The position numbers and the translations under genes were made by a program. A stretch of DNA of 64,000 nucleotides from Planctomycetota bacterium (GTDB lineage: Bacteria; Planctomycetota; UBA1135; GCA-002686595). Below, piece after piece: positions 15,669 through 46,076 of the stretch (its first letter is position 1; every line of letters starts with the position of its first letter). Location: contig JAKVCD010000018.1 of assembly GCA_022446815.1 (NCBI GenBank), positions 211,908-275,907 on the forward strand. Direction: 5' to 3'. Under the pieces are notes generated by a model. That model had not been told where the DNA came from and searched no databases. It saw only the letters and a list, made by a program, of their open reading frames with translations.

Positions 15669-18230
15669 ATGAAGATCTCCCGATTCGTGCCCCTCATGGG
15701 CGCGCTCTCAATCTTGGCCATGACGGCCGATGCAAACTTAGCGGCAGAGCCCAGTCGCAGCGCCCCCAGCGTGCACTTAGTCACAACCCCTGTGGACGGT
15801 GCCCCTGGGAGCTTGCGACAGATAGTCTCGGTGGCGGCCCCCGGCGACGTGATCACCTTCGCTGGCCCCATGACAGTCAACCTCGGCTCCCCGATCATTG
15901 TCGGTGTCGACAACCTCACCATCGAGGCCTGCTACCCGGATGTGACTGTGAACGCCCTAGGGCTCTTTCCCGGTATCGAGCTCTCTGCCGTGACGGGTTG
16001 TCACATCAGGGGCTTGAGGATGGAGGGCTTTAACCCTGCGATCGGGCTCACTGCTGGCGCCCACGACAACCGCATCGGTGGACCAGACCCTTGCGACGTC
16101 GTCGAGATCTATAGCGGCGGCCTCGGGGTCGCGCTCTCAGACCCCGGGACGGTCCGCAACAAGTTCGTGCAGGTCCAGGTTCATCACAACTTGTACGAGG
16201 GGATCTATCTCCGCCACGGCGCGAGCGAGAACTTCTTCGGTGATGGAACCCCCTCCGGCGCGGTCATCTCATCCGACAATGGCAGGAACGGCGTCCTCCT
16301 CGAGGACACAGGCGGTACAGGGAGCTCAGTCATTCGAAACGAGTTCCACCACTGTCTCATCGGTCTAGACCCGAGCGGGCTCGCGCCTGCAGGTAACGCG
16401 CTCTCAGGCGTCGTGCTTGATGGCCCGGGAGTCATCGAGAACCTGTTCAGCGCGTGCGTCATCTCAGACAACAGCATGAACGGCGTCACGATCACAGGTG
16501 GTGCGAGCCAGAACACCTTCTGGACCTGCCTCATCGGCGTAGACGCCTCTGGCACAGCCATGCTGGGCAACGTCAACGGAGTTGAGATCAACGCTGGCTC
16601 CTTGAACGCGATCGAGGCTGGCGTGGTCTCAGGCAACCAGCAGTTTGGTGTCGTGATCAGGTCTAGCGCTGCCTTCGACAACAAGGTGAACGAGAACCGG
16701 ATCGGTCCGGACGCTAACGCAGCAGCGCTTGGGAACGGCAGGTCCGGCGTCGCCCTCATGGACGGGACCTCCGACAACCGTGTCATCGGTAACCACATCT
16801 CCAGCAACGGAGAGGACGGCGTCGCGCTGATGGGGAACGACCCCGTCGACAACTTGATCGAGTCTAACTTGATCGGCACGGATCAGAGCGCGAGCGCAGC
16901 GATGCCCAACGCGAGGAACGGGATCTTCTTGGGCTCTGTCGCGAGCTCGAACGACTTCAGGGAGAACGTCGTGAGCGGCAACGCAGACAACGGTGTCGCC
17001 GTAGTCGGCTTGGGCTCAGATGAGAACCACTTCCAAGGGAACATCATCGGCCTGGACTCTTCGCTCGCTAACGCGATCCCGAACGGCGGGAGCGGGATGC
17101 TCATCTACAGCTCCAAGAACCTCGTCGGTGGAGTGAACCCGGGCGACGGAAACTACATCTGCGCGAACACACGCTGGGGGGTCGAGGTCCGAGGACCCGC
17201 CGCTGGCTTCGCAGCCCTTGAGAACGAGTTCTACGGCAACACTGTCGGCATGTCCGGCCTCGGCAACGGGAGAGGCGGGCTGTGGTTTGACTCTGGCGCC
17301 CTCGACAACCTCGTCGGCAACAGCCTTGCAGGTAACACGATCCATGAGAACAGTGGCCCTGGCGTCTTGGTGTACAACGCCTCGACAGCTGACCCTGCAG
17401 ACGGGAACCACATCCTCAGCAACAGCATCACGGCTAACGCAGGTGATGGGATCGAGCTAGCGGGTGGAGGCAACTGCATGATCCCTGCCCCGATCATCAC
17501 CGCAGCGAACTCTGTGAGCGTCCAGGGTTATACGACCGTCTCGAGCCCCCTCTGCACGGTGCAGGTCTTCCGTGACACTGACGACGAAGGGATGGAGTTC
17601 CTCGGGGAGGTCTTGGTCTCCTCGAGCTATGGATTCTTCAGCATCCCGGTCACTTTGTCTCCGGGCGATCGCGTCACGGCGACGCAGACCGCGGACATAG
17701 GCTGCACGACCCCTCGTGCCGAGACCTCTCCCTTCTCCATGGTCATGACGGCGTCTGAGATCGGCTCGCCCGACTGCTTCTGCGCTAACGCTGTCGCCAT
17801 CTGCGGCAACCCTGACCCCAACGCCGGCTGCGCAAACTCCACCGGGAGCGGCGCCCTGCTGAAGGCTCACGGTACGACTAGCGTAGCTAGCGACGACCTG
17901 ACCCTCTCCGCGACGCAGCTCCCCCTCACGAGCTTCACGATGCTCCTCGGCAGTCGTGCGACTCGGAACATCCCGTTCCGCGACGGTCGCCTTTGCGTCG
18001 GCGGCTCTGGCACGCGCATCTGGCGCTTCCAGCTCAGGAACTCGGGTCAGTGGGGTGCGGCAGTCTTCGGCGCTGGCATCGTCGCGAGGAGCCTCTCCTT
18101 CTCCACCCCGACCGGTTACATCAACTCAGGAGACACCTGGTACTTCCAGACCTTCTACAGGGACACCACGGGTCCCTGCGGTTCGGGTGGGAACCTCACC
18201 AACAACGTGAAGATCAGCTTCACACCCTGA
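15669..18230 (+). CDS. Secreted right-handed parallel beta-helix (PbH1/NosD-like) repeat protein ending in the shared C-terminal domain
   Basis: Signal peptide MKISRFVPLMGALSILAMTADA. Many N-x-I/V-x-x-N..G+ beta-helix turns (VISDNSMNGVTI, HISSNGEDGVAL, VVSGNADNGVAV, SITANAGDGIEL). The last 151 aa align to the tails of the 29.7-37.0 kb proteins. Confidence 0.8.
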   Translation: MKISRFVPLMGALSILAMTADANLAAEPSRSAPSVHLVTTPVDGAPGSLRQIVSVAAPGDVITFAGPMTVNLGSPIIVGVDNLTIEACYPDVTVNALGLFPGIELSAVTGCHIRGLRMEGFNPAIGLTAGAHDNRIGGPDPCDVVEIYSGGLGVALSDPGTVRNKFVQVQVHHNLYEGIYLRHGASENFFGDGTPSGAVISSDNGRNGVLLEDTGGTGSSVIRNEFHHCLIGLDPSGLAPAGNALSGVVLDGPGVIENLFSACVISDNSMNGVTITGGASQNTFWTCLIGVDASGTAMLGNVNGVEINAGSLNAIEAGVVSGNQQFGVVIRSSAAFDNKVNENRIGPDANAAALGNGRSGVALMDGTSDNRVIGNHISSNGEDGVALMGNDPVDNLIESNLIGTDQSASAAMPNARNGIFLGSVASSNDFRENVVSGNADNGVAVVGLGSDENHFQGNIIGLDSSLANAIPNGGSGMLIYSSKNLVGGVNPGDGNYICANTRWGVEVRGPAAGFAALENEFYGNTVGMSGLGNGRGGLWFDSGALDNLVGNSLAGNTIHENSGPGVLVYNASTADPADGNHILSNSITANAGDGIELAGGGNCMIPAPIITAANSVSVQGYTTVSSPLCTVQVFRDTDDEGMEFLGEVLVSSSYGFFSIPVTLSPGDRVTATQTADIGCTTPRAETSPFSMVMTASEIGSPDCFCANAVAICGNPDPNAGCANSTGSGALLKAHGTTSVASDDLTLSATQLPLTSFTMLLGSRATRNIPFRDGRLCVGGSGTRIWRFQLRNSGQWGAAVFGAGIVARSLSFSTPTGYINSGDTWYFQTFYRDTTGPCGSGGNLTNNVKISFTP
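17775..18227 (+). other. Shared C-terminal domain, divergent copy
   Basis: GCANSTGSGALL..SDDLTLSATQLP..FRDGRLCVGG..YFQTFYRD..C..NLTNN..I.F-stop aligns with the GCANxxG../FGDGLRCAGG/YQxWYRD/NLTNG tails. Confidence 0.7.
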
Positions 18231-27985: not shown

Positions 27986-29689
27986 TTAGTCTCTCTTGAG
28001 ACCTCGAAAGAGGTCCTTGAGGCCGCCCTCTGTGGCCTTCTCTAGGAGGACGCCACGCGCAGCGCTGGTCAGCCAGCGCTTCCAGGCGCCGTCACGATCA
28101 ACCAACCTCGGGTTATCTAAGCGGCCCTCCAAGCGGAGCTTCACGGTGTCAGCGGGCAGTGAGACGGCGCCGCTCCCGATGTCGGCGCGTCCGCCGGTGA
28201 TCTGCAGTTGGATCTCACCGTCTAGCTTGGCGCCGGGGCTGGAGACGAGCCCCTCGACCCCGAGGCCGATGGCGCCTGCGAGGAGCTTGTCCTCGATGCC
28301 GAGGTCTTTGGCTAGCCGCACAGCGTCCACTCCAGCGCCGCCGCCCTGAAAGCGCCAGCTGCTCGCACTCTTGCGTGACCAAGAGAGCTCTAGGTCTCCG
28401 TCGCTCGTGCGAGCAGTGGTCGTCATCGGTCGCTCGACGAGCTCTGGCTCGTCAGAGAGATCGGAGAGGACGAGCTCTACCGTGCGTCCATCTCCCAGCG
28501 GGATGTCACGCCAGGCTGCTTCGATGATGTGTACGCGCGGCCTGCTGCGGTGGAGGGGGGTGCGAGCAGCGGGAGGGGGGATGAAGATCCCTGCCGCCTC
28601 TTGAGCAGCACGCTCAGCCTCCGCGCTAGAGCCCTCACCTCCGAGGAGCTCGAAGCCTCGCCGCACCTGCTCGAGCAGCTCATCGAGCCTCTCCTTGTCT
28701 TCGATGAGCTCGCGCCAGTCGATCACTCTGCCCTTGTCGGGCTTTCCGGTATCCGCCTCGCTCAGCGGGGGGAGCTCAATCTTGGATCCTGGTTGTTCAC
28801 GGGGCTGGTCAAAGCTCGCGCCGCTTAAGACGAGGCGCTCGATGACGATCTCGTGCCTCGCGAGGGCTGCGGCGTCGAGGTCAGCCTCGAGGGATTCCCA
28901 GCGCACGAGGTCACGGCTGAGGTCCTCTGGATCAACGACCGCGAGCCCGCCCACAGAGATCTTGGCCTGCGCAAAGGAGAGCTCAGCCTCACGGCAGTCG
29001 ACCTGCGCGCCAGTCACTTGGGCGAGGGAGCTCACGAGGGCGCCACGGATCCCCTTCGCCTGAGCGAGTGAGAGGTAGGTGCTCGCTCCCAAGACGATCA
29101 AGATGAGGCCTAGCACGCCTGCTGGGCGCCACCAGCGACCCGTCAACTCTAGCGTAGATCGGAAGCCCTCCTTCGGAAGTCCACCAAGGAGCAGCCACGC
29201 GAGCGCTCTCACCCAAGCCTTTGAGGTCCATAGCCGGAAGGCCTCAGAGCCCTCCTCTAGGGTCGCGAGCTTCTCTCTGAGCCGCGTGACTAGCTGAACC
29301 AGGAGCGCCCCTGTGAGGGCCCCAAAGAGCAGCCCTACGGCCGCACCACCGCTGACTCGGTTTGACTCCCACTCCGCCCAGGCCAAGAGCGGAGCCTCTG
29401 CTAGCCGTGCGAGGAGGCCGCTGAGTGGACCGCTCGAGAGCGCGCCTCCGACTCGTTCGACCTGCTCATATGCGGCGAGGGCTACGAGGGAGCTCGCGCC
29501 CGCAACGGCCATGAAGAGCGGGACGCTCGCGTTCAAGATCAAGAGCGCACCGACACAGAGCGCCAAGAGCGCAGCCCCAGTGTGATCCCAGGGCACGAAA
29601 CCTACGACGCCACCTAAGAGGCAAGACAGGGTGAGCTGCTCACTTGTGACGCGGCCTACGAGCAGGCCGAGGATGCGGTGACGTGACAC
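27986..29689 (-). CDS. Large membrane protein, N-terminal polytopic region plus AsmA/DUF748-like extracytoplasmic region (assignment tentative)
   Basis: About 5 TM helices in the first ~210 aa. This is followed by repeated 'L.F...+I.V.GL.V.DP' and 'I.I.RL.L.G' beta-rich patterns. It lies 64 nt downstream of, and co-directional with, the repeat-protein genes. Confidence 0.6.
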   Translation of the reverse strand: MSRHRILGLLVGRVTSEQLTLSCLLGGVVGFVPWDHTGAALLALCVGALLILNASVPLFMAVAGASSLVALAAYEQVERVGGALSSGPLSGLLARLAEAPLLAWAEWESNRVSGGAAVGLLFGALTGALLVQLVTRLREKLATLEEGSEAFRLWTSKAWVRALAWLLLGGLPKEGFRSTLELTGRWWRPAGVLGLILIVLGASTYLSLAQAKGIRGALVSSLAQVTGAQVDCREAELSFAQAKISVGGLAVVDPEDLSRDLVRWESLEADLDAAALARHEIVIERLVLSGASFDQPREQPGSKIELPPLSEADTGKPDKGRVIDWRELIEDKERLDELLEQVRRGFELLGGEGSSAEAERAAQEAAGIFIPPPAARTPLHRSRPRVHIIEAAWRDIPLGDGRTVELVLSDLSDEPELVERPMTTTARTSDGDLELSWSRKSASSWRFQGGGAGVDAVRLAKDLGIEDKLLAGAIGLGVEGLVSSPGAKLDGEIQLQITGGRADIGSGAVSLPADTVKLRLEGRLDNPRLVDRDGAWKRWLTSAARGVLLEKATEGGLKDLFRGLKRD

Positions 29690-29752: not shown

Positions 29753-31303
29753 TCAAGCTCCCCAGGTGATCTCGTAGCCGTTTGAGAGGTTGAACAGGCT
29801 CGAGCAGGGGGAGGTACCAGCGTCACGATACCAGTACTGATAGCGGCGCGTTTGGCCCACGCTGATGGTGCCGTTCGTGACGATCGAGATGGTGGAGCTC
29901 GTCGTGAAGTTGTTGCCGGAGTTGGCGAACTGGACCTCGAGCCTGCGGACGCTGCCCCCAGCGCAGCGGAGGCCGTCCCCGAAGGGGTTCCCGTTCCCCG
30001 AGTTGACGGCGTTGTTGCCTTGGAAAAAGAGGCCCGGGCCAGGGGTGAGGTTGGTAGCTGTCAAGACAACATTGTCCGCTGCGACGCTCGGCGTACCTGA
30101 GGCGGTGAGCTCTGCGCCGCTGCCCGTGTCGTTCGCGCACCCTTCACCGAGGCCGCCGTTGTTTGAGCAGGGGCACGGGGTCCCGATGCCGTCACCGAAG
30201 CAGTACTTCGTACCGGGCTCCGAGCTGCCGAGTCCGGTCGCGCGGGTCATGAGGACCGCGGGGAAGCCGATCGAGTCAAGATCTGCGGGTGCCTGATCGT
30301 TCAGAGTGAGGTCGTTCAAGTTGAAGGCACCAGCAGTGTTCGAGAAGGACGCGAAGGAGCGACCGCTCGAGCTGAAGCTCTCATCAAGCGGGGCAGGGTA
30401 TTCGCCCACTCCGTGGGTGCAGACCACCCCGACGATGAAGTTGCCGGAGACCGCGACGCCGCCGGTGGAGTAAGAGTTCAGGATGTCTGTGTCAGCGTTC
30501 GTGACCGTCGTGGCTGTGCTCCAGAGGAGCACTCCGTCGCTGGGGTCTCCGTCGTTGTTGGGGTCATCCCAGATACCGACGGTGGCGGCGCTTCCGTTTG
30601 TGATGGATCCGGGGATCCCGGCAGCCCCATAGGAGGTCTGGACCACAGTGATCGTGTCCGCGCCGCCCTCGGCTGCGAAGAGGTTGCCCCACCAGATGTC
30701 TCCGCCAGCGGAGAGTCCGAGGTTGTTCGTGGCTGAGCCGAGGTCGTAGCGATAGCCGTCAGGCTCATCGAGGATCGTGACTTCCAGCGAGCCGGAGCCG
30801 CCGCTGGCGCCGTCCCAGGTGCCAACCTGTAAGAGGTAGGTAGAGCCGGAGCTGACGCTGAAGTTGATCGTCGACTGGAATCCGCACGCGTCGTCATTGC
30901 AGGCGATAGCGCTCCCGTCAGAGGGGCAGCTGCTACCAGCGTAGGCGGCGAGCTTCGAATCGATCGTCGTTTGGCCGCAGGTCGAGATCTGAGCGAGGCC
31001 CGTGGCATCGGCGGTCCATGCGAACCACACGTCGTTCCCTATCGCGCTCGCCCCGAAGACATAGCAAGAGGGCTCAGCTTGTCCTTGCGTACCGGTCGTG
31101 GCGCTCGAGTTGTTGAATGCGAAAAGCCCTTGGCCTGAGATCGATGCTGCTGATGAGCAGTCATCGCTGCCGCCTACGACGATCGCGGCTACGGTCGTAG
31201 AGGGAGTCAGCGCTCCAGGTGCGCTCGTCCGGCCAGCGCTGAACTGCGCGTTTGCTACGGAGAGGCTTGAGAGGGAGAGACAGAGGATGAGAGCGTGTCG
31301 CAT
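29753..31303 (-). CDS. Secreted Cys-rich protein A: one repeat module, a middle beta-rich domain, and the shared C-terminal domain
   Basis: Start at the internal ATG 31303 gives signal peptide MRHALILCLSLSSLSVANAQ. One DDC..NDVWF.WTA..ACNDD..YLLQVG module. Tail has FGDGLRCAGG..YQYWYRD..NLSNGYEITWGA-stop. Confidence 0.8.
   Translation of the reverse strand: MRHALILCLSLSSLSVANAQFSAGRTSAPGALTPSTTVAAIVVGGSDDCSSAASISGQGLFAFNNSSATTGTQGQAEPSCYVFGASAIGNDVWFAWTADATGLAQISTCGQTTIDSKLAAYAGSSCPSDGSAIACNDDACGFQSTINFSVSSGSTYLLQVGTWDGASGGSGSLEVTILDEPDGYRYDLGSATNNLGLSAGGDIWWGNLFAAEGGADTITVVQTSYGAAGIPGSITNGSAATVGIWDDPNNDGDPSDGVLLWSTATTVTNADTDILNSYSTGGVAVSGNFIVGVVCTHGVGEYPAPLDESFSSSGRSFASFSNTAGAFNLNDLTLNDQAPADLDSIGFPAVLMTRATGLGSSEPGTKYCFGDGIGTPCPCSNNGGLGEGCANDTGSGAELTASGTPSVAADNVVLTATNLTPGPGLFFQGNNAVNSGNGNPFGDGLRCAGGSVRRLEVQFANSGNNFTTSSTISIVTNGTISVGQTRRYQYWYRDAGTSPCSSLFNLSNGYEITWGA
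29756..30205 (-). other. Shared C-terminal domain (copy in A)
   Basis: YCFGDGIGTPCPCSNNGGLGEGCANDTGSGAEL..VVLTATNLTPGPGLFFQGNNAV..FGDGLRCAGG..RYQYWYRD..C..FNLSNGYEITWGA. Confidence 0.8.
30761..31165 (-). repeat. Single copy of the ~135-146 aa Cys-rich module in A
   Basis: DDCSSAASISGQG.F.F..SSATTG.QGQAE.SCYVFGASAIGNDVWFAWTADATG...STCG....DSKLAAY.GSSCP.DGSAIACNDDACGFQS...F.V..GSTYLLQVG. Confidence 0.8.
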
Positions 31304-31470
31304 GTCGGCGTCAGAGGTCGGTCTAGGTCGGGATGGAGGGGATCCAAGGCCAGCTTGTGCCCATACCCCTAGGATCAAGGATACCCCGAAATTCAATTTC
31401 CTGCCGTTCATGTGCGCCGGTGGGGCAGTTCGGAGCGCTCTTCCTTGGGCGAACCTCCGCTATGAGAGGC

Positions 31471-31539
31471 GGGGCGGCCATCCGCGCAGGATGGCCGCCC
31501 CCCTTGTGCTTGGTGCCCCTCGCGCTCACGCGCGAGGGG
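31471..31539 (-). terminator. Two GC-rich hairpins downstream of gene B
   Basis: 13-bp perfect stem ggggcggccatcc / ggatggccgcccc (31471-31501) and 10-bp perfect stem cccctcgcgc / gcgcgagggg (31516-31539). No U-tract. Confidence 0.5.
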
Positions 31540-31556
31540 ACCCATCTGTCATGGGA

Positions 31557-34328
31557 TCAGGCGCCCCAGACGATGTTGATAGCGTTGGTGAGGTTGTGGC
31601 TGTTGCCGCAGAGCCCACCACTGGAGACCTCACGGTACCAGTACTGGTAGTTCAGGCTGTCGCCAGCGCTGACACCTCCGGTCGCGGCGAGATCCACGGT
31701 AGAGAGGGCGTTACCAGAGGCGTCAGAGGCTGTCACCTGGAGGCGGATGGCGTTGAAGCCAGCGCAGCGTAGGCCGTCTCCGAAGGGGAGTCCGGCGCCG
31801 CCGTTCACAGCGTTCTCACCAGAGAAGAACACGCCCGGGAGACCCGGAACCGCGCCCACCGCGAGGAGGGAGACGCTGGAAGCGCTAGCGCTCGGGCTAC
31901 CCGTAGCGGCCAGGGAGGCCGGCTGGGTGGTTGAGTTAACACAACCAGAGGGCAGGATCTGAAGCGCGTCGTTGCCACAGGGGCAAGCGCCGCCGCTACC
32001 GTTGCAGTAGGGGACACCCGTCGTCGCGATGACAGAGAGGATGCCGGTGCCAGCTTCACCTCCGCTCCAGCCGCCGACATTGACCTGATAGGTCGTGCCT
32101 GCCGCGGCGAAGAAGCCGAGGCCAGACTGGAGACCGCAGAGGTCGTCGCTGCAAGCGACCTCAGCACCACCGCAGCCATCGAAGACCGCGAGGACTGTGT
32201 CGAAGTCAGCGGCAGGGGTGCCGTCTAGGTTGCAGAGCGCCATGATCACGAGGCCATTCTCAGCCGCCGTGTAGGAGTGCCAGACATCGTTGAAGTTGTC
32301 ACGGCAGGAGATCGCAGTACCACCAGAGGCAGCCGCCGATCCGTAGCTCGCGCCAGTCGTGTCGATCAAGTTCGCACCATCGACGAGCGTGCCAGCGTTG
32401 GCGCAGTCATCGTGCGGGTGCGGAGGCAACGCGCTACCGATCGAGATCGTCAGGTTGCCAGAGCCGCCGGCAGTGCCGGGGAAGTGGCCGACTTGGAGCA
32501 GGTAGCTCGAGCCGCTCGTGACGTCAAAGCTCATCTCAGAGGTGAAGCCAGCGCAACCGGATGCGTCGTCGTTACAAGCGAGCGACGAGCCGTCGACAGG
32601 GCAACCGCCGGCCGGATAAGCCGCGATCTTCGTGTCAGCGCTCGCGTCGTTGCAGGTCGAGATCGTGGCGGTGCCGTCGGCGTCAGCGGTCCACTCGAAC
32701 CAGACGTCGTTGTCGACCGCGGAGCTGCCGAAGCTGTAGCAGAGGACCTCGTTCTGTCCCTCAGCGCCAGTCGTCGCTGTGACCGCGCTGAAGGGGAAGG
32801 CCCCTTGGCCAGCGATCGCCTCGGGAGCGGAGCAGTCGTCTGCGCAGCCGGTGCAAGAGGATGCTTGGCTGACGTTCAGAGTGGCGGCGCCACCGGGAGA
32901 GCCGGGGAAGTTACCGCACATGATGAGGTAGCTCGAACCAGCGGTGCAGCTGAAGGCGATCTGCGACTGGAGGCCGCAGGTGTCGTCGTTGCATGCGAGA
33001 GCAGCGCCGTCAGCGGGGCAAGCGCCACCGTCGAAGGCAGCGATCTTGGTATCCGGGGCAGAGCCACAGGTGTCCATGGTCACGGTGCCGCTGACGGTCG
33101 CGGTCCACTCGAACCACATATCGTTGTCGACGGCTGAGCTTCCAAAGGCGAAGCAGAGGGCCTCGTTTTGACCTTCAGCGTCTGTCGAGTTGCTGGAGTT
33201 GTCATAGGCGAAGTTGCCGTCACCGGAGATCGCGCTCGGGTTGGAGCAGGTCTCACCCTCGGCGGCGACCAGGGTTTGCGTGATTGTCACGTTGCCAACG
33301 CCGCCGGAAGTGCCGGGGAAGTGCCCAACCTGCAGGAGATAGCTGCTACCTGCGGTGCAGGCGAAGGACATCTCTGAGGTGAAGCCTGCGCAGCCCGTGC
33401 CGTCGTCGTTACAAGCGAGCGCCGAGCCGTCAACGGGGCAACCGCCGGCCGGATAAGCCGCGATCTTCGTGTCAGCGCTTGCGTCGCTGCAAGTAGAGAC
33501 GGTGACCGATCCATTGGTGTCGCAGGTCCACTCGAACCAGACGTCGTTATCAACTGCGGAGCTTCCGAAGTTGTAGCAGAGGGCCTCGTTCTGTCCCTCA
33601 GCGCCCGTCGTCGCGGCAGTCGCGTCGAAGGGGAAGACACCGTCACCGGAGATGGGTGTAGCGTCAGCACACTCGTCTGTACCGGTCGTCACGCAGGGGG
33701 CCGTGACGGTGATATTAAGGAGACCAGTTCCACCGCCTGAGCCAGGGAAGCTGCCGACCTGAATCAGGTAGGCGGTCCCTGCTGTGACTGCCATGTCGAG
33801 CTCAGAGGTGAAGCCAGAGCAGCCAGAGGCATCGTCGTTGCATGCGATGGCCGAACCGTCAGCGGGGCAACCGCCAGCGGGGTAGACCGCGAGTCTCGTG
33901 TCGAAAGTGGCGCTATCGCAGAGCGAGACGTTCGCTGAGCCGTCGCACTCTGTGTTGGTCCACTCGAACCAGACGTCGTTCTCGATAGCGCTTGAGCCGA
34001 AGCTGTAGCAGATCGCTTCATTCTGACCTTCAGCGCCAGTTACGGCAGCACTGGAGTCGAAGGGGAAGGATCCTCCGCCCGCGATAGGGGTAGCGGCGGC
34101 GCAGTCATCGGCGCCAGGGACGCCCATATTGAGCTGTCCGCCGATCGTGCCGATCCTGCCGAGGTTGACAGTCTGCTTGGACTGATAGTTGGGCTTTGAG
34201 GTCGGCTGGGGCTTTTGTCCCGGGCGTGCGACCTGCTTCTGCTGAACCTGCGCTGTCGTCGCAGGCACTTGTGCGAACGCGAGGCCTGTACAGGCCATGA
34301 TCGCGAAAGCGAATGTGAAACGTTTCAT
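31557..34328 (-). CDS. Secreted Cys-rich protein B: five tandem modules plus the shared C-terminal domain
   Basis: Start at ATG 34328 gives signal peptide MKRFTFAFAIMACTGLAFAQ, then a Q/P/K-rich linker. Five modules follow, with boundaries near nt 34109, 33677, 33254, 32840 and 32411, then a 151-aa tail. Confidence 0.85.
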   Translation of the reverse strand: MKRFTFAFAIMACTGLAFAQVPATTAQVQQKQVARPGQKPQPTSKPNYQSKQTVNLGRIGTIGGQLNMGVPGADDCAAATPIAGGGSFPFDSSAAVTGAEGQNEAICYSFGSSAIENDVWFEWTNTECDGSANVSLCDSATFDTRLAVYPAGGCPADGSAIACNDDASGCSGFTSELDMAVTAGTAYLIQVGSFPGSGGGTGLLNITVTAPCVTTGTDECADATPISGDGVFPFDATAATTGAEGQNEALCYNFGSSAVDNDVWFEWTCDTNGSVTVSTCSDASADTKIAAYPAGGCPVDGSALACNDDGTGCAGFTSEMSFACTAGSSYLLQVGHFPGTSGGVGNVTITQTLVAAEGETCSNPSAISGDGNFAYDNSSNSTDAEGQNEALCFAFGSSAVDNDMWFEWTATVSGTVTMDTCGSAPDTKIAAFDGGACPADGAALACNDDTCGLQSQIAFSCTAGSSYLIMCGNFPGSPGGAATLNVSQASSCTGCADDCSAPEAIAGQGAFPFSAVTATTGAEGQNEVLCYSFGSSAVDNDVWFEWTADADGTATISTCNDASADTKIAAYPAGGCPVDGSSLACNDDASGCAGFTSEMSFDVTSGSSYLLQVGHFPGTAGGSGNLTISIGSALPPHPHDDCANAGTLVDGANLIDTTGASYGSAAASGGTAISCRDNFNDVWHSYTAAENGLVIMALCNLDGTPAADFDTVLAVFDGCGGAEVACSDDLCGLQSGLGFFAAAGTTYQVNVGGWSGGEAGTGILSVIATTGVPYCNGSGGACPCGNDALQILPSGCVNSTTQPASLAATGSPSASASSVSLLAVGAVPGLPGVFFSGENAVNGGAGLPFGDGLRCAGFNAIRLQVTASDASGNALSTVDLAATGGVSAGDSLNYQYWYREVSSGGLCGNSHNLTNAINIVWGA
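31560..32012 (-). other. Shared C-terminal domain (copy in B)
   Basis: YCNGSGGACPCGN..GCVNST..LLAVGAVPGLPGVFFSGENAV..FGDGLRCAG..NYQYWYRE..C..HNLTNAINIVWGA. Confidence 0.8.
32013..34109 (-). repeat. Intragenic tandem array of 5 coding modules of 133-144 aa (399-432 nt)
   Basis: Each unit begins D-[DE]-C (one begins E-T-C). Each carries GQNE..C[YF].FGSSA[VI][DE]NDVWFEWT, DT[KR][IL]A.[YF], ACNDD and YL[IL]QVG.FPG. The fifth unit is divergent. Confidence 0.9.
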
Positions 34329-34572
34329 GGGAGTTGTGTGAATGGGTTTATGTGTGGATCCAAAGAACACGAGAGGGAGGTTTTGAAGCTGGCGTTACCC
34401 TGCCTGAACTCACGAAACATGCGAGTCCACTACCCTGCCGGTCCTACTCCAGACTCACCCAGAAACGCAAAATCGGCAATCTACAAACTAGAAGATTCGA
34501 GGTTAGACCCCTCTAGACACCCGAAAACCACACTTATTGGTGAGTTCGCTTGGCTTGGCGATCAGCCACAGT

Positions 34573-34612
34573 CGCCTTGAGGATCTGTCGGGCGCTTTGA
34601 GGACCTGTCGGG
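34573..34612. repeat. Tandem 20-nt direct repeat in the B-C intergenic region
   Basis: cgccttgaggatctgtcggg followed immediately by cgctttgaggacctgtcggg (2 mismatches). It lies between the gene C terminator and the gene B upstream region. Confidence 0.7.
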
Positions 34613-34621
34613 CTCCTCAGG

Positions 34622-34661
34622 AATAAAAAAAGGCGGGCGACCCCCGAGGGGGCCGCCCGCT
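34622..34661 (-). terminator. Rho-independent terminator of gene C
   Basis: GC hairpin gcgggcgaccccc gag ggggccgcccgc. On the minus strand it is followed by a U-run (plus-strand aaaaaaaa at 34624-34631). Confidence 0.8.
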
Positions 34662-34710
34662 GTGCTTAGCACCTGGGAGCGTTCGCTCTCAGGCGCTCAA
34701 AGAGTGCGGA

Positions 34711-37017
34711 TCACGCGCTCCAGGTCAGCTCAATACCGTTCGTCAGGTTGAACTGAGCGCCACAGGCCGAGGTGGCCGGGTCACGGTACCAGACCTGGTA
34801 GCGCTTGACGTCACCAGCAGCGACTTGACCTTTGGTCGAGATGCTGATGTTGGTGTCGGCAGCGCCGCTTGCGTCAGGGAAGCGGACCTGGACTCGGATG
34901 ACCCCACCGCCAGCGCAGCGGAGGCCGTCACCAAACTGGATGCCGTCACCGCTTTGGATAGCGTTGTTGCCCTGGAAGAATAGACCGGGCTGGTTGGGCA
35001 GCAGCTGAGTCGCACTCAAGACGAGGGTGTCGTTTGAGATGCTCGTGTCACCAGAGCAGGTGAGCTTGCCACCGACGCCGGAGCCGTTAGCGCAACCTTC
35101 ACCGGTGGCGCCAGCGTTACCGCAGGGGCAAACCGTCGCGCCAGTGTCGTCGCCAGAGCAGTACACCGTGCAGGGGCCCGTCGGATCGCCTGCGATGATG
35201 CAGTCGAAGGTGCCCGCACCGATACCAGCGGCACTGAACGTACCGAACTGAATCAGGTAGGTGGTGTTGCTCGTGACGCTGAACTGCATCTCGGACTGAA
35301 GACCACAGACGTCGTCGTTGCAGGCCAGGATCGTGCCGGGGACCGGCGGGCAGGCGTTGGGCCATGCCGCGATCTTGGTGTCGAGCGTCGCGCCTCCGTT
35401 GCAGAGGGTGACGTCGGCGAGGCCGGTGGCATCAGCGGTCCATGAGAACCAGATGTCGTTGTTCACGGCGCTGGAGCCGAAGGCGTAGCACAGAGCTTCG
35501 TTTTGACCGTCGGTTCCAGTGGTCGCGGGGAGCGAGGCCGTGGAAGCGCCGGAGTTGTCGAAGTTGAAGGTGCCTTGACCAGAGATGGCGACCGGAGCCG
35601 AGCACTCGTCGTTCGGGTGCAAGACCGGCGGAGCGCCAGCAGAGATGTCTAGGGTGCCTTGGCCACCAGCGGCGCCAGGGAAGCTACCAACCTGCAGGAG
35701 GTAGGTGGTTCCGGTGGTCGCCGAGAAGTTGATCTCCGAGGTGAAGCCAGCGCAGCCAGTGAAGTCATCGTTGCAGGCCAGAGCGGAGCCCGCAGCCGGG
35801 CAGCCACCGCTGGGGTAAGCAGCGAGCTTAGTGTCATAGGCGGCGTTGTTGCACGTCGAGACGGTCGCGTTGCCGGTGAAGTCAGACGTCCAGTCGAACC
35901 AGATGTCGTTATCAACCGCGGAGGAGCCGAAGTCGTAGCAGATGTACTCGTTCTGCCCTTCGGCGCCGGTCGTCGCCAGGGTCGTGTCGTAGGTGAACTG
36001 GCCTTGGCCCGCGAGGGGGTCAGGGCTGCTGCAGTCGTCGTTACCTGACGGCGGCGCGAGGCCGTTGATGTCAAGGTTGCCGGTACCGCCGGTGGCGCCA
36101 GGGAAGGTGCCGACCTGGATCGTGTAGACCGAGCCAGAGGTGGCCGCGAGGATGACGCTCGACTGCAGGGCGCAGTTGTCATCGTTGCAGGCCAAAACTG
36201 CACCAGCGCTCGGGCAGCCGGCGCCGGGGTAGACACCGATCTTGGTGTCGACGGTGGTGGCGCCGCAGGTCCCGATGCTCACGCTCTCGGATGCAGGGGC
36301 TGTCCACTCGAACCAGACGTCGTTGTCGACCGCGGAGGAGCCGAACGCGTAGCAAGCGTACTCGTTCTGACCCTCAGCGCCGGTGGTGGCGAAGCTGTTG
36401 TCGAAGGCGTAGCTGCCGTAGCCGCTGATCGCGTCAGCGCTGGCGCAGTCGTCGTTACCGCCGCCTCCGCCGCCGCCGCCGCCGCCGCCGCTCTCACTGA
36501 CGTTGATGGTGCCGGTTCCGCCAGCTGAGCCGGGGAAGTTGCCGACCTGGATCAGGTAGCTCGTCGATGCCGTGCAAGGGAACGAGATCTGCGACTGAAG
36601 GCCGCAGGTGTCGTCGTTGCAGGCGATAGAAGAGCCGGCCGCGGGGCAAGCACCGCCAGGGTAGGCAGCGATCTTGGTGTCGAGGGTGTTTCCGCAGGTG
36701 TCGACGAGAGCTGTGCCGGTCGTCGCTGCGGTCCACTCGAACCAAACATCGTTGTCGATGGCGGAGGAGCCGAACGCGTAGCAGGCGTACTCGTTCTGGC
36801 CTTCAGCGCCGCTTGTAGCCGCCGAGTTGTTGAAGTTGAAGGTGCCAGCGCCAGAGATGGCAACGGGCGTATTGCAGTCATCGCTGCCACCAACCGAAGC
36901 GTTGATGGTAGTCATCATCATCGCCTTCGTCTTACTGGTTGGTTTTTGGGCCGGCTGCTGGGCGTTCGCGGAGCTCGCGCCGATCAGCAGACATGCGGCC
37001 AAGATGGAAAATTTCAT
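34711..37017 (-). CDS. Secreted Cys-rich protein C: four tandem modules plus the shared C-terminal domain
   Basis: Signal peptide MKFSILAACLLIGASSANAQ and a Q/P/K linker. Module boundaries lie near nt 36882, 36453, 36039 and 35610. A Gly11 linker follows module 1. The tail is 153 aa. Confidence 0.85.
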   Translation of the reverse strand: MKFSILAACLLIGASSANAQQPAQKPTSKTKAMMMTTINASVGGSDDCNTPVAISGAGTFNFNNSAATSGAEGQNEYACYAFGSSAIDNDVWFEWTAATTGTALVDTCGNTLDTKIAAYPGGACPAAGSSIACNDDTCGLQSQISFPCTASTSYLIQVGNFPGSAGGTGTINVSESGGGGGGGGGGGNDDCASADAISGYGSYAFDNSFATTGAEGQNEYACYAFGSSAVDNDVWFEWTAPASESVSIGTCGATTVDTKIGVYPGAGCPSAGAVLACNDDNCALQSSVILAATSGSVYTIQVGTFPGATGGTGNLDINGLAPPSGNDDCSSPDPLAGQGQFTYDTTLATTGAEGQNEYICYDFGSSAVDNDIWFDWTSDFTGNATVSTCNNAAYDTKLAAYPSGGCPAAGSALACNDDFTGCAGFTSEINFSATTGTTYLLQVGSFPGAAGGQGTLDISAGAPPVLHPNDECSAPVAISGQGTFNFDNSGASTASLPATTGTDGQNEALCYAFGSSAVNNDIWFSWTADATGLADVTLCNGGATLDTKIAAWPNACPPVPGTILACNDDVCGLQSEMQFSVTSNTTYLIQFGTFSAAGIGAGTFDCIIAGDPTGPCTVYCSGDDTGATVCPCGNAGATGEGCANGSGVGGKLTCSGDTSISNDTLVLSATQLLPNQPGLFFQGNNAIQSGDGIQFGDGLRCAGGGVIRVQVRFPDASGAADTNISISTKGQVAAGDVKRYQVWYRDPATSACGAQFNLTNGIELTWSA
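34714..35172 (-). other. Shared C-terminal domain (copy in C)
   Basis: YCSGDDTGATVCPCGNAGATGEGCANGSGVGGKL..TLVLSATQLLPNQPGLFFQGNNAI..FGDGLRCAGG..RYQVWYRD..C..FNLTNGIELTWSA. Confidence 0.8.
35173..36882 (-). repeat. Intragenic tandem array of 4 coding modules of 138-146 aa
   Basis: Same module consensus as in B. Two subtypes are interleaved: NDD.CG[LF]QS and NDD..GC.GFTSE. Confidence 0.9.
36457..36489 (-). repeat. Trinucleotide tract encoding Gly11
   Basis: Plus strand reads acc gcc gcc tcc then (gcc)x7, with the perfect (GCC)7 at 36469-36489. It forms the linker between modules 1 and 2 of C. Confidence 0.9.
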
Positions 37018-41622: not shown

Positions 41623-44190
41623 TCAGTCCCTGCCGAAGAGCTGGAAGGCGGCCCAGTCAGGGCTCCCGTTCGCGCGCAGGCGCCGGCCTGCGTTCCTCAC
41701 GGCCTCCGAAGGCGTCATCTTCGCTAAGAGTGCCTCGTGCATGGCGACCCCGAAGTCTCGGGCGGCCTCGTCCGGGACTGGCCATTGCGTCGCGACGACG
41801 TTGCGGGTCCCCGTAGAGAGGAAGGCGCGGCAGAAACCTAGCACCCCTTCTCCGTCGAGCACCTGGCCTCCGGCCGTCTCACATCCCATCAAGATGACGA
41901 GCTCCCTCGCGCCGGGTTTGGCCGGGAGGTCTGCGACGCCTAGGGTCACGCCATCTGTGAGCTCCCATGCGGGGCCTGGCCCGTCTGCCGTCTCGACCCA
42001 CTCAACGTGGGTCGCGACGTGGAGGCAGTCGTCGCCCTCAAGCGCTTTGAGCATCGCCGCCTTGGTCATCGCCGCACCCATCAAGAGCTCGGCGGGCCGT
42101 CGCGCGCTGATCTTCTCTAGCTCATCGACTGCGGCTTCAAGTCTCGGACGTCCGTCTCTCACGAGCGGTGCGCCAGCGAGAGTCCAGCTCGCCGCTGGGA
42201 GCTTGGACTCGCCAGGGCTTAGGTCCGGTATGCCAGGAAGCGTCCTCAAGGTCGCGGCCTCACTGAGGAGGAGCGTCTCTGCGCTTTCAGCCCTGTGGAC
42301 TCTGAGCGCGCTCACAGGGAGGGACTCGAGCGGCCCATGCGTGCAGAGCAAGAGGCTGCCGCTGTTTGAGGTGGCGAGGAGCTCTCTCAGCGCGCTCGGG
42401 AGCAGGCTCGTTGCGAGCTCGATGCCTACGTCCTCTGCGCTCGTTTCATCGCCCTCCCGCAGGGCTTGCGTCAGATGACTCACTGCGCGCTGGATCGCAC
42501 GCCTGCCGTGGGGGATCTCAAGAGAGTCTGTCCGACCATCGGGGCCAATCCAGAGCGCGAGGCCTTCGTCGGGGCCCAAGGCCCAGGTCACCAATCCGTG
42601 CTGTGTCCCAGCAGCCCATCTGAGGAGGTCGTTCTCTTCGATGCCCCGAATAGCAGAGCGGAGGCTCCTCGACTGGAGCTCCTCTATCGTTCGTGCTGCG
42701 AGCAGGGGGCGCTCGAGCTGCACGTAGGTGCGCGCGAGGAGTTGGACAGCGTGCATGCCGAGCGCCTCGCCCCCGAGGCTCGCGGTCTCGCTCGCGGAGG
42801 TCCGCGGAGCGAGGCCTCTGTCGCGCTCGAGCGCCCTGCGAAACGCGGGCTCTAGGGCTGCGCGTGCGAGCTCGAAGTGCCCTGAGCGGTGAAGATGTTC
42901 TCCAGAGTAGATCTCCGCGATCTCTTTGAGCTCGGTGGGGAGTGTAGAGATCCATGACTCGCTCAACAGGGTGGAGAGATCTCCCAAACTGCGCTCGCGC
43001 CTTGAGCCGGTCAGCTCATCGAGGGATCTCAACGCGAGGTATGCGCGCAGCAGGCGCGAGCGATTGGTATAGGTGACGCCACGGTTCAGCAACGCCTCTG
43101 CCTGCTCCAGCTCGCCCGCGCGAATGAGGACTGTGGCCTCGAGATCACGCGCTTGGTCGCGGAGCTTAGGAGATGAGAGAGGGTCGACACCTGCGGCGGA
43201 TTGGCGGTCGAAGAGCGCATCTAGGTAGAAGGAGTGCGCTTGCTCAGGATGATCCTCGTCGATCAGCCAGGTGACAGTCTCCTGCGCCCATGCCCACCAC
43301 TCTTCGAGCGCCGTGCGATCCGGGTCACGAGCGAGCGCACCCCACTCGCGTAAGAGCCGCTCCCGCTCGAGACCTAAGCCTGCGCGGTCAGCGGCGCGTA
43401 CGAGTGAGCGAAGGAAGAGAGACTCATAGAGTGAGTCGTTGATCTCGCGCGCTAGCTGCAGCCCGCGGAGGGCGTGAGCGCGAGCGGTGCTGAGATCGGC
43501 GGTGCGCAAGCGCGCACGGGCAGCGACCTCGAGGGCCTCGACCTCTTGTTCGTAGAAGCCCACACGTCCGTACGTGTCGACGGCGCGCTCTGCGAGCGTG
43601 GAGGCGCTGGAGGCGTCGGCGATGCCCTCGCCTCTGAGGAGCAGCTCTGCACTGATGCGCCTTGCGTAGGCAGCGGGGAGCGGGTCTCTCAGCTCGTCGA
43701 GCTCTCGCGTGATCTCGTCGAGCTCTCGCAGCAGCTCGCTGCGCTCATAGTTGGGATCTGCGCTGAAGGCGTCGAGGGAGGCTTCGATTCGATCGATCCC
43801 AGCTCCTGCGAGCATCGCTTGCAGCGAGTCGAGCGAGGTCAGGTGTGTGGTTACGCGCAGGGCATCTTCGCGGCCGCACGCTTCGTTGAGCTCACTCGCT
43901 AAGGATCGGAGCGAGGGCTGATCAGTCGACTCGCCGCGGTGCACCGCTCGGAGTCCTTCTCGTAGTTGGCGTAGCTGGTCTACGCAGGCTGGCGCCGCGC
44001 TTGCGGAGAGGGACTCCGATGAGGGCTGCGGCGCTGGTGGAGCGAGCGCTTCAGCTCGCGAAGGCCTCTCCGGAAGGCTCCCGATCGCAGCGCTGACTAC
44101 GAGCAGGCTCCCAGCGCTCACCAAGAGGGCAGACTCAAGCGAGAGGTCTCGCCTCGGGCGGAGGGCCTCCTCCAAGTCTCCGCGCGTCAT
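41623..44190 (-). CDS. Membrane-anchored TPR-like / CHAT-domain (caspase-fold) protein
   Basis: N-terminal anchor SALLVSAGSLLVVSAAIGSL after a basic stretch. About 500 aa of helical repeats follow. The C-terminal ~325 aa have LLLCTHG, CLHVATHVE (His box) and ELVILMGCETAGG (Cys box), as in CHAT domains. Confidence 0.8.
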   Translation of the reverse strand: MTRGDLEEALRPRRDLSLESALLVSAGSLLVVSAAIGSLPERPSRAEALAPPAPQPSSESLSASAAPACVDQLRQLREGLRAVHRGESTDQPSLRSLASELNEACGREDALRVTTHLTSLDSLQAMLAGAGIDRIEASLDAFSADPNYERSELLRELDEITRELDELRDPLPAAYARRISAELLLRGEGIADASSASTLAERAVDTYGRVGFYEQEVEALEVAARARLRTADLSTARAHALRGLQLAREINDSLYESLFLRSLVRAADRAGLGLERERLLREWGALARDPDRTALEEWWAWAQETVTWLIDEDHPEQAHSFYLDALFDRQSAAGVDPLSSPKLRDQARDLEATVLIRAGELEQAEALLNRGVTYTNRSRLLRAYLALRSLDELTGSRRERSLGDLSTLLSESWISTLPTELKEIAEIYSGEHLHRSGHFELARAALEPAFRRALERDRGLAPRTSASETASLGGEALGMHAVQLLARTYVQLERPLLAARTIEELQSRSLRSAIRGIEENDLLRWAAGTQHGLVTWALGPDEGLALWIGPDGRTDSLEIPHGRRAIQRAVSHLTQALREGDETSAEDVGIELATSLLPSALRELLATSNSGSLLLCTHGPLESLPVSALRVHRAESAETLLLSEAATLRTLPGIPDLSPGESKLPAASWTLAGAPLVRDGRPRLEAAVDELEKISARRPAELLMGAAMTKAAMLKALEGDDCLHVATHVEWVETADGPGPAWELTDGVTLGVADLPAKPGARELVILMGCETAGGQVLDGEGVLGFCRAFLSTGTRNVVATQWPVPDEAARDFGVAMHEALLAKMTPSEAVRNAGRRLRANGSPDWAAFQLFGRD

Positions 44191-44199
44191 CGCGCGAGG

Positions 44200-45312: not shown

Positions 45313-45324
45313 CTTGGCGCAGGG

Positions 45325-45930: not shown

Positions 45931-46076
45931 GGGGATCGAGGAGCGCTGAAGGCGCCCCCGGCATGGCTTCTTTTCGGCCCGGAATCCCATCACCGACCCA
46001 GGATGAGTCAGATGAGGGCCTCGAGTCCCTATCTCGCTCCCAGCTGGTGCGGCCTGTTGCCCGAAAGGAGTTCAAG

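What the first reader, a model, noticed from the sequence alone, without database searches (positions are those of the whole stretch)
29753..37017. Three tandem genes for secreted Cys-rich proteins that all end in the same unassigned ~150-aa C-terminal domain
Genes A (29753-31303), B (31557-34328) and C (34711-37017) are adjacent and co-directional. Each starts with a Sec signal peptide ending A-x-A-Q. Each terminates in a domain that aligns end to end. The shared landmarks are C-P-C-[GS]-N, G-C-x-N-[SDG]-x-x-G, L-x-A-x-x-[LV]-P-x-x-P-G-[LV]-F-F-x-G-x-N-A, F-G-D-G-L-R-C-A-G, Y-Q-x-W-Y-R-[DE], a late Cys, and N-L-[ST]-N-x-x-x-[IL]-x-W-[GS]-A followed by the stop. I cannot place this domain in any named family from memory. 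Its strictly terminal position on otherwise different proteins follows the logic of a C-terminal sorting, secretion or anchoring tag such as the T9SS CTD or PEP-CTERM. However, it is larger than those tags and is stabilised by conserved cysteines.
Basis: partly seen in the sequence, partly recalled or inferred. Interest (0 to 1): 0.75.

Follow-up and report, generated by a model that had tools for sequence, protein, structure and literature searches.

The report
Unannotated docking domain of marine Planctomycetota
Three neighbouring secreted-protein genes, and a fourth 12 kb away, end in the same 150-residue cysteine-braced beta-sandwich domain, which belongs to a very large, unnamed family in uncultured Planctomycetota and most likely tethers many different secreted proteins to one common partner.

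Summary
Genes A, B and C lie on the minus strand. A fourth gene, D (15669-18230, plus strand), carries the same roughly 153-residue terminal domain.

The domain matches nothing in Pfam, NCBIfam or PDB sequences. AlphaFold2 models it very confidently (pLDDT 96-97) as an all-beta sandwich, and Foldseek finds no close solved structure.

The family is very large:
- 13,281 clusters at 50% identity match the profile.
- At least 573 copies occur in GTDB species genomes, and the best 80 come from 10 "Planctomycetota bacterium" MAGs.

There is one copy per protein. It sits at the extreme C-terminus in about 98% of the proteins collected with the domain itself as query. The passengers are unrelated: FG-GAP propellers, lectins, a beta-helix, a cupredoxin and a nuclease.

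The domain is not strictly a C-terminal tag:
- One PETase-like hydrolase family carries it at the N-terminus (44 of 120 homologues). A type I dockerin fills the same slot in another homologue.
- Complete stand-alone proteins made of a signal peptide plus the domain also exist.

No processing or transport machinery was found nearby.

My best reading is an autonomous tethering or docking module, not a cleaved secretion signal. This is inferred, not shown. It is a new variant of a known kind and moderately interesting.

The parts
29753..31303 (-). Gene A, 516 aa: signal peptide, one GBD-like module, an unassigned middle region, then the terminal domain
   Evidence: ORF and translation. The same protein is found on an ENA metagenome contig.
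31247..31303 (-). Signal peptide of A (MRHALILCLSLSSLSVANA|Q)
   Evidence: Read directly from the sequence. No dedicated signal-peptide predictor was run.
30770..31174 (-). Single GBD_T9SS_assoc-like module of A
   Evidence: Weak Pfam PF23759 match (E 1e-3, below the curated cut-off). It is 56% identical to the first module of C.
29756..30214 (-). Terminal domain of A (residues 364-516), followed directly by the stop codon
31557..34328 (-). Gene B, 923 aa: signal peptide, five GBD modules, terminal domain
32022..34118 (-). Array of five GBD_T9SS_assoc modules in B (period about 414-432 nt). Modules 2 and 4 are 81-87% identical at the DNA level.
   Evidence: Pfam PF23759, E 2.4e-25, 5 matched stretches. 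DNA repeat families D1-D4. Coordinates.
31560..32018 (-). Terminal domain of B (residues 771-923)
34711..37017 (-). Gene C, 768 aa: signal peptide, four GBD modules (with a run of 11 Gly after the first), terminal domain
35188..36891 (-). Array of four GBD_T9SS_assoc modules in C
   Evidence: Pfam PF23759, E 6.7e-16, 4 matched stretches..
34714..35172 (-). Terminal domain of C (residues 616-768). This is the sequence modelled by AlphaFold2.
   Evidence: pLDDT 96.9, pTM 0.91, all-beta. Coordinates.
15669..18230 (+). Gene D, 853 aa: signal peptide, right-handed beta-helix passenger, and a divergent (subtype 2) copy of the terminal domain
   Evidence: ORF. Pfam PF13229 Beta_helix, E 1e-18. Coordinates.
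17763..18227 (+). Terminal domain of D (residues 699-853)
   Evidence: tblastn E 3e-16 and 3e-17 to A and C. AlphaFold2 pLDDT 95.9 with the same order of strands.
34633..34660 (-). GC-rich hairpin followed by a T-run, 50 nt after the stop of C. It looks like a terminator, so C is probably its own transcription unit.
   Evidence: This is a consensus scan only, and the number of such sites in the region is not above the shuffled expectation.
31471..31501 (.). 13-bp GC-rich hairpin between the stop of B and the start of A. It supports the A start at 31303 rather than 31411.
   Evidence: The T tail is weak.

Best explanation
The shared tail is a new domain family specific to a lineage of Planctomycetota. 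It is about 150 residues long, folds on its own, and works outside the cytoplasm.

The fold is a beta-sandwich preceded by a cysteine-rich N-terminal segment. There are six conserved Cys, most likely forming three disulfides made after Sec export.

I propose it is a tethering or docking module. It binds one common partner, most plausibly a component of the producer's own envelope or surface matrix. This keeps many unrelated secreted binding proteins and a few enzymes attached to the cell instead of diffusing away.

A, B and C would then be surface-displayed multi-module binding proteins. D would be a surface-displayed beta-helix protein.

Shown: that the family exists, its size, its predicted fold, its position in proteins, the diversity of passengers, and its taxonomic restriction. 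Inferred: the disulfides, the binding function and the identity of the partner.
For: - The domain is real and conserved. The four window copies are 39-56% identical, and mean column identity is 50% across 39 diverse members, although the passengers are unrelated.
- It folds autonomously. AlphaFold2 gives pLDDT 96.9 and 95.9 and pTM 0.91 for two subtypes, with the same order of strands.
- The family is very large and restricted. 13,281 clusters at 50% identity match it. At least 573 copies occur in GTDB species genomes. The best 79 loci come from 10 Planctomycetota MAGs and hold 122 such genes. Every organism name returned with the domain as query is Planctomycetes/Planctomycetota, apart from one MAG (two proteins) labelled Paceibacteria.
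- There is exactly one copy per protein among the 365 database proteins and 122 locus ORFs checked. The linker to the passenger is very short.
- Passengers are adhesin- or lectin-like, or are enzymes that benefit from staying on the cell: FG-GAP propellers, GBD modules, C-type, legume and LamG lectins, Kelch, beta-helix, cupredoxin, endonuclease I and a beta-lactamase-like protein. None of the 25 Pfam families listed for the passengers (of 47 matched) is a glycoside hydrolase, lyase or sulfatase.
- The position is flexible in a way that suits a binding module. It is N-terminal in 44 of 120 PETase-like hydrolase homologues. A type I dockerin occupies the same N-terminal slot in another homologue, P0438.
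- Stand-alone secreted copies exist as complete genes.
- Most carriers have Sec signal peptides. The window also encodes a TonB-dependent receptor and TonB, so the host has an outer membrane.
Against: - No partner or receptor has been identified.
- No binding has been shown.
- Coordinates of the models were not available, so no conserved surface patch or disulfide map could be examined.
- The very strong bias toward the C-terminus (about 98% of the proteins collected with the domain as query) is not required of a simple binding module. It is also what a sorting signal would show.
- Stand-alone copies are easier to explain for a lectin or an assembly subunit than for an anchor.
- Gene neighbourhoods gave no support for any partner.
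Confidence: 0.45

Rival explanations
1. It is a lectin or carbohydrate-binding-module-like domain. It recognises an external polymer such as marine particles or algal or other cell surfaces, and so targets or cross-links secreted proteins on a substrate rather than on the producer.
For: - It is a stand-alone beta-sandwich fold that also occurs alone and at the N-terminus.
- The conserved polar and aromatic columns (N, D, R, Q, W, Y) are typical of sugar-binding sites.
- The weak Foldseek neighbours include adhesin repeats, LPMO-like folds and carbohydrate-binding proteins.
Against: - No carbohydrate-active enzyme appears among the 25 Pfam families listed for the passengers of 99 representatives, although sulfatases are common nearby in these genomes.
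- It is never found in tandem and almost never internal. Classical CBMs vary far more in number and position.
- Targeting a cupredoxin passenger to an external polymer makes little sense.
Confidence: 0.25
2. It is a true export or sorting signal. A dedicated machinery not yet described recognises it, either a T9SS-like system or the type II system recognising a folded domain. That machinery moves cargo across the outer membrane and may cleave or attach it.
For: - It lies at the extreme C-terminus in 360 of 365 database proteins and 116 of 122 locus ORFs. It occurs once per protein, many times per genome, on diverse Sec-dependent cargo, in a restricted lineage.
- It is a folded beta-sandwich, like T9SS CTDs (PMC11285876).
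- The same passenger type (PF23759, named by Pfam as T9SS-associated) is used here with a different tail.
Against: - N-terminal copies in a hydrolase family and cargo-less stand-alone copies do not fit a C-terminal signal.
- Sequence conservation is high, whereas T9SS CTDs show little sequence similarity (PMC11285876).
- There is almost no linker that would allow cleavage.
- No candidate machinery lies in the window or in 79 related loci.
- From general knowledge, not tested here: T9SS is not known in Planctomycetota.
Confidence: 0.15
3. It is a homotypic assembly module. Stand-alone copies would be the main subunits of a surface fibre or lattice. Fusion proteins would join through the same domain, as pilus tip adhesins join through a C-terminal pilin domain.
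For: - Stand-alone secreted copies coexist with many lectin-plus-domain fusions.
- The fold is Ig-like.
- Sequence conservation is high, as expected for self-interaction.
Against: - No chaperone, usher, sortase or polymerisation genes lie nearby.
- The model is a complete sandwich with no sign of a missing strand.
- Fusion proteins appear to outnumber stand-alone forms by far in the sampled loci.
Confidence: 0.1

Closest known systems
T9SS C-terminal domain of Bacteroidota (Por_Secre_tail PF18962 / TIGR04183)
   Same: Both are folded beta-sandwiches at the extreme C-terminus of many Sec-exported proteins per genome with diverse passengers, including GBD-type modules. Both are restricted to one lineage.
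   Different: - No sequence match, and no T9SS CTD among the Foldseek hits.
- About 150 residues rather than 67-108.
- About 10-11 strands rather than 3+4.
- Six conserved Cys.
- High sequence conservation.
- It also occurs at the N-terminus and alone.
- The host phylum is not known to have T9SS.
Type I dockerin (PF00404) and the cohesin-dockerin logic
   Same: Both are one small module per protein, mostly C-terminal but sometimes N-terminal, appended to many unrelated secreted proteins so that they dock to a common partner. In one hydrolase family a dockerin fills the same N-terminal slot as this domain.
   Different: Dockerins are about 60-70-residue calcium-binding helical repeats. This domain is a 150-residue disulfide-braced beta-sandwich. 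No cohesin-like receptor is known or was found.
Tripartite C-terminal sorting signals (PEP-CTERM/exosortase, LPXTG/sortase, GlyGly-CTERM, MYXO-CTERM)
   Same: All are many-per-genome, lineage-restricted C-terminal tags on diverse secreted proteins.
   Different: Those are 20-40 residues: a motif, a transmembrane helix and a basic tail. This domain has no hydrophobic helix and ends in a beta-strand (NL[ST]NGxExxW-x-x). It gives no NCBIfam match.
Carbohydrate-binding modules and pre-peptidase C-terminal (PPC) beta-sandwich appendages
   Same: Both are autonomous beta-sandwich appendages of secreted proteins. Stand-alone forms are possible.
   Different: No Pfam match. A profile-profile comparison with the GBD modules of the same proteins gives probability 0.1%. 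The domain is never in tandem, and no carbohydrate-active enzyme was seen among the listed passenger families.

Membership tests
T9SS CTD (PF18962 / TIGR04183 / TIGR04131) | Sequence match to the family models | tested here: not met
   No Pfam or NCBIfam hit covers the tail in A, B or C at E <= 1. No Pfam family is shared by the tails of 99 representatives.
T9SS CTD (PF18962 / TIGR04183 / TIGR04131) | Compact Ig-like 3+4 seven-strand sandwich of 67-108 residues (PMC11285876) | tested here: not met
   The models have about 10-11 strands over 153-155 residues. Foldseek against the PDB returns no T9SS CTD structure in the top 50 and nothing at E <= 1e-3.
T9SS CTD (PF18962 / TIGR04183 / TIGR04131) | Obligatory C-terminal position on cargo | tested here: not met
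   44 hydrolase homologues carry it at the N-terminus, and at least 20 clusters are the domain alone.
T9SS CTD (PF18962 / TIGR04183 / TIGR04131) | Host encodes T9SS core genes (PorK/L/M/N, Sov, PorU/V) | not tested
   Only the 64-kb window and loci of about 12 kb were available, and none of these genes was seen in them. Whole genomes could not be scanned.
Tripartite sorting signals (PEP-CTERM, LPXTG, GlyGly-CTERM, MYXO-CTERM) | Short signature motif, then a transmembrane helix, then a basic cluster at the C-terminus | tested here: not met
   The last 30 residues are polar beta-strand sequence (..SPCGxxFNLSNGxExxWxP) with no hydrophobic helix. There are no NCBIfam hits.
Dockerin type I (PF00404) | Duplicated calcium-binding loop-helix segments; Pfam match | tested here: not met
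   No Pfam hit. The model is all-beta. Only the logic is shared, including the shared N-terminal slot in one hydrolase family.
Galactose-binding-domain-like / GBD_T9SS_assoc (PF23759) | Homology to the GBD modules in the same proteins | tested here: not met
   hhalign of the tail profile (A2) against the module profile (A5) gives probability 0.1%, E 0.65.
LPMO / X325 copper proteins (weak Foldseek neighbours) | N-terminal histidine brace on the mature protein; significant fold match | tested here: not met
   TM-score is 0.42 and E about 1e-2 only. The domain is C-terminal and has no conserved His.

The most novel reading that the evidence does not exclude
The domain is the address label of a surface-display or outer-membrane export system specific to Planctomycetota that has not been described. 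It would have its own receptor or machinery, functionally parallel to T9SS or cohesin-dockerin but unrelated to both. That system would organise much of the cell-surface proteome of abundant uncultured marine Planctomycetota.
Probability: 0.2. Interest if true: 0.85.

Novelty: new variant of a known kind. Interest (0 to 1): 0.6.

Why it matters
How Planctomycetota place proteins on their surface is poorly understood. The lineages that carry this domain are uncultured, and most of the MAGs found come from marine samples.

A single unannotated domain found on thousands of secreted proteins is a direct handle on that question:
- It defines a large candidate surface proteome of lectins, propellers, nucleases and hydrolases.
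- It gives a profile that can be used for phylogenetic profiling to find the partner.
- It offers a compact, confidently modelled disulfide-braced fold with no close solved relative.

Adding the family to Pfam or NCBIfam would annotate more than 13,000 protein clusters that are now 'hypothetical'.

Tried and rejected
- **Named families.** Pfam and NCBIfam scans of A, B and C, and Pfam scans of D and 99 representatives, found nothing covering the tail.
- **PDB by sequence.** The only hits were marginal 40-residue matches to the F-G strand region of TCR V-beta (FGxG-like), best E 0.008. I treat this as a chance Ig-type pattern.
- **Foldseek.** Searches of the PDB with two models and of viral BFVD gave no hit at E <= 1e-3. 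The best TM-score was about 0.43, to generic Ig/FN3, adhesin-repeat, LPMO-like and transglutaminase sandwiches.
- **Tail as a diverged GBD module.** hhalign probability 0.1%.
- **Partner gene by neighbourhood.**
  - The window neighbours are housekeeping genes: Vut_1, an AsmA/DUF748-like protein, and an APH plus methyltransferase protein.
  - The rest of the window encodes ordinary metabolism, TonB and its receptor, and an ECF sigma factor with a CHAT protein.
  - Clustering the flanking ORFs of 79 loci found only generic Planctomycetota expansions: sulfatase, DUF1080-like and PSCyt-like.
  - The stand-alone copies have unrelated neighbours.
- **The N-terminal-copy hydrolase as a dedicated processing enzyme.** Rejected. 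The same hydrolase core is widespread without the domain, including in Acidobacteria and a deltaproteobacterial symbiont.
- **Literature.** Searches for sorting signals in Planctomycetota and for the motif strings returned nothing relevant.
- **Taxonomy.** Nothing finer than 'Planctomycetota bacterium' could be obtained.

Full report
**Observation.**

The three ORFs exist at the stated coordinates but lie on the minus strand: A 29753-31303 (516 aa), B 31557-34328 (923 aa) and C 34711-37017 (768 aa). Each starts with a 19-residue signal peptide ending A-x-A|Q.

Their last 153 residues align end to end. Identity is 46% for A/B and 56% for A/C, with tblastn E-values of 1.8e-26 and 2.5e-49.

A fourth copy ends gene D (15669-18230, plus strand). 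Its passenger is a right-handed beta-helix (PF13229), and its tail is 39% identical to A's.

One correction applies. A, B and C are paralogs along their whole length. Their passengers are arrays of 1, 5 and 4 modules of Pfam PF23759 (GBD_T9SS_assoc). These show as a DNA periodicity of 414-432 nt, and two of B's modules are 81-87% identical at the DNA level. So inside the window only D shows the tail on a truly different protein.

A terminator-like hairpin follows C (34633-34660), and a GC hairpin sits between B and A. The genes are probably separate transcription units.

**What the tail is.**

No Pfam or NCBIfam model covers it. PDB sequence profiles give only marginal 40-residue matches to TCR V-beta.

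AlphaFold2 with a 39-sequence alignment models C's tail at pLDDT 96.9 and pTM 0.91 as an all-beta sandwich of about 10-11 strands. A cysteine-rich, mostly coil segment precedes it. D's divergent tail gives pLDDT 95.9 with the same order of strands.

Foldseek finds no PDB or BFVD entry at E <= 1e-3. The best matches (TM about 0.43) are generic Ig/FN3-like sandwiches. The tail is unrelated to the GBD modules in the same proteins (hhalign probability 0.1%).

Across 404 distinct copies six Cys are conserved, at profile columns 8, 17, 19, 29, 88 and 139. Column 17 (85% of copies) is replaced in a mutually exclusive way by column 10 (14%). One C-x-C pair is therefore always kept. This fits three disulfides, or less likely a four-Cys metal site plus one disulfide. 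I could not decide between them because model coordinates are not returned.

The passenger joins the tail through only about 5-8 residues, with a loose PG[TS]x[YF]C consensus.

**Distribution.**

- A profile search of 1.84 billion representative proteins found 13,281 clusters at E <= 1e-3, 8,444 at <= 1e-10 and 2,309 at <= 1e-30.
The best 79 loci come from 10 'Planctomycetota bacterium' MAGs, mostly marine plus one from activated sludge.
- Those loci hold 122 genes with the domain. In 27 of the 79 loci there are 2-5 such genes within 12 kb, so tandem clusters like A-B-C are typical.
- Every organism name returned with the domain as query is Planctomycetes/Planctomycetota, apart from one MAG (two proteins) labelled Paceibacteria.
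- The motif strings appear in no indexed paper.

**Architecture.**

The domain ends at the last residue, or within one to three residues of it, in the following sets:
- all 120 best word-index hits;
- all 150 best representatives;
- 102 of 107 hits to the divergent subtype;
- 116 of 122 locus ORFs.

The other locus ORFs are frameshifts, locus-edge truncations or the exception described below. No protein has two copies.

The Pfam families most often matched by the passengers of 99 representatives were FG-GAP (15), GBD_T9SS_assoc (7), DUF5122 propeller (5), Rax2 propeller (5), C-type lectin (5) and LamG (4). Legume lectin, Kelch, PD40, beta-helix, beta-lactamase and cupredoxin also occur. Endonuclease I and RCC1 appear in the first search. 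None of the 25 families listed (of 47 matched) is a glycoside hydrolase, lyase or sulfatase.

There are two exceptions to the C-terminal rule.
- **N-terminal copies.** A family of PETase-like alpha/beta-hydrolases of about 820 residues carries the domain at the N-terminus directly after the signal peptide, in 44 of its 120 closest homologues. Other homologues have nothing there (641-688 aa), have other extensions, or in one case (P0438, residues 35-87) have a type I dockerin in the same slot. Homologues without the domain include proteins from Acidobacteria and a deltaproteobacterial symbiont.
- **Stand-alone copies.** At least 20 clusters of 172-188 residues are a signal peptide plus the domain only. 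Three of them were confirmed as complete genes inside contigs, with unrelated neighbours.

**Search for machinery.**

The genes next to A, B and C encode a Vut_1 transporter, a 567-aa membrane protein with weak DUF748/YhdP (AsmA-like) similarity, and an APH-plus-methyltransferase protein. The rest of the window encodes ordinary metabolism, a TonB-dependent receptor with TonB, and an ECF sigma factor with a CHAT protein.

Clustering all flanking ORFs of the 79 loci produced only families that are generally expanded in Planctomycetota: sulfatase, DUF1080-like and PSCyt-like. No candidate protease, transpeptidase or outer-membrane component emerged. Whole-genome phylogenetic profiling could not be run with these tools.

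**Mechanism.**

The pattern is one copy per protein, dozens per genome, unrelated passengers, high conservation of the tail and restriction to one lineage. That is the pattern of a shared address.

The N-terminal copies, the interchange with a dockerin, the stand-alone copies and the missing linker argue against a signal that must sit at the C-terminus and be cleaved. They argue for an autonomous binding module.

The passengers are mostly binding domains, plus a few enzymes that profit from staying near the cell. No carbohydrate-active enzyme was seen among them. I therefore favour tethering to a component of the producer's own envelope or matrix (confidence 0.45).

The rival readings are:
- binding to an external polymer (0.25);
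- a true export or sorting signal with unknown machinery (0.15);
- a homotypic assembly module (0.10).

Only the descriptive facts are shown. The binding function, the partner and the disulfides are inferred.

**Comparison with known systems.**

It works most like a dockerin or a retained T9SS CTD, but it is a member of neither. It fails the sequence, size, strand-number and position criteria of T9SS CTDs (PMC11285876). It lacks the transmembrane helix of PEP-CTERM-type signals and the calcium-binding helical repeats of dockerins.

**Verdict.**

The domain family is real, very large and unannotated, with a confidently predicted fold that has no close solved relative. It is used as a mostly C-terminal docking module in uncultured Planctomycetota. 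It is a new variant of a known kind, and I score interest at 0.6.

Noticed in passing
window 31247-31303, 34272-34328, 36961-37017; loci L001-L079: Signal peptides of proteins carrying the domain end small-x-small|Q ('A-x-A|Q') in 68 of 102 representatives and 60 of 79 locus ORFs. The figure is 20 of 78 for other ORFs of the same loci that have an N-terminal hydrophobic region. The test was a crude regular expression, with no SignalP. This resembles the 'Q-rule' (N-terminal pyroglutamate), which is described as specific to Bacteroidetes (PMC5837995).
   Followed up: partly
terminal domains: 29756-30214, 31560-32018, 34714-35172, 17763-18227: The two most conserved Asn residues lie in N-x-[ST] sequons. 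Profile column 144 (NL[ST]) has a sequon in 395 of 403 copies and column 31 in 298 of 403. These could be structural Asn turns or N-glycosylation sites. This was not resolved.
   Followed up: partly
terminal domains, profile columns 8-29: One of the six conserved Cys switches between two positions in a mutually exclusive way: C-P-C at columns 17/19 (85%) or C-x-C at columns 8/10 (14%, as in gene D). One CxC pair is always kept. This is compatible with a disulfide rearrangement or with a four-Cys metal site.
   Followed up: partly
L044 2362-4806 (-), L058 2097-4571 (+); P0366-P0457: A widespread family of PETase-like alpha/beta-hydrolases has a variable N-terminal slot. It is filled by the new domain (44 of 120 homologues), by a type I dockerin (P0438), by other extensions, or by nothing.
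   Followed up: yes
L081 8001-8528, L084 8001-8522, L087 5627-6151: Complete stand-alone genes of 173-175 aa encode a signal peptide plus the domain only. Their neighbours are unrelated housekeeping genes.
   Followed up: yes
window 27986-29689 (-): A 567-aa membrane protein lies 63 nt downstream of gene A on the same strand. It has weak DUF748/YhdP (AsmA-like) similarity, below the Pfam cut-offs. The same gene follows the A ortholog on an independent metagenome contig.
   Followed up: no
window 41623-45993 (-): An ECF-type sigma factor (222 aa), an unassigned 370-aa protein and an 855-aa CHAT-domain protein lie in a row on the minus strand. This may be a signalling or protease module.
   Followed up: no
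window 18889-20592 (+): A multihaem cytochrome c fused to TPR repeats lies immediately downstream of gene D.
   Followed up: no
window 30215-30769 (-), gene A residues 179-363: Gene A has a middle region of about 185 residues between its GBD module and the tail, with no Pfam match. Gene C has a run of 11 consecutive Gly after its first module.
   Followed up: no
terminal domain, profile columns 48-87: There is a marginal sequence resemblance (best E 0.008 over 40 residues) to the F-G strand region of T-cell receptor V-beta domains, including an FGxG-like motif (FGDG). This is probably a convergent Ig-type pattern.
   Followed up: no
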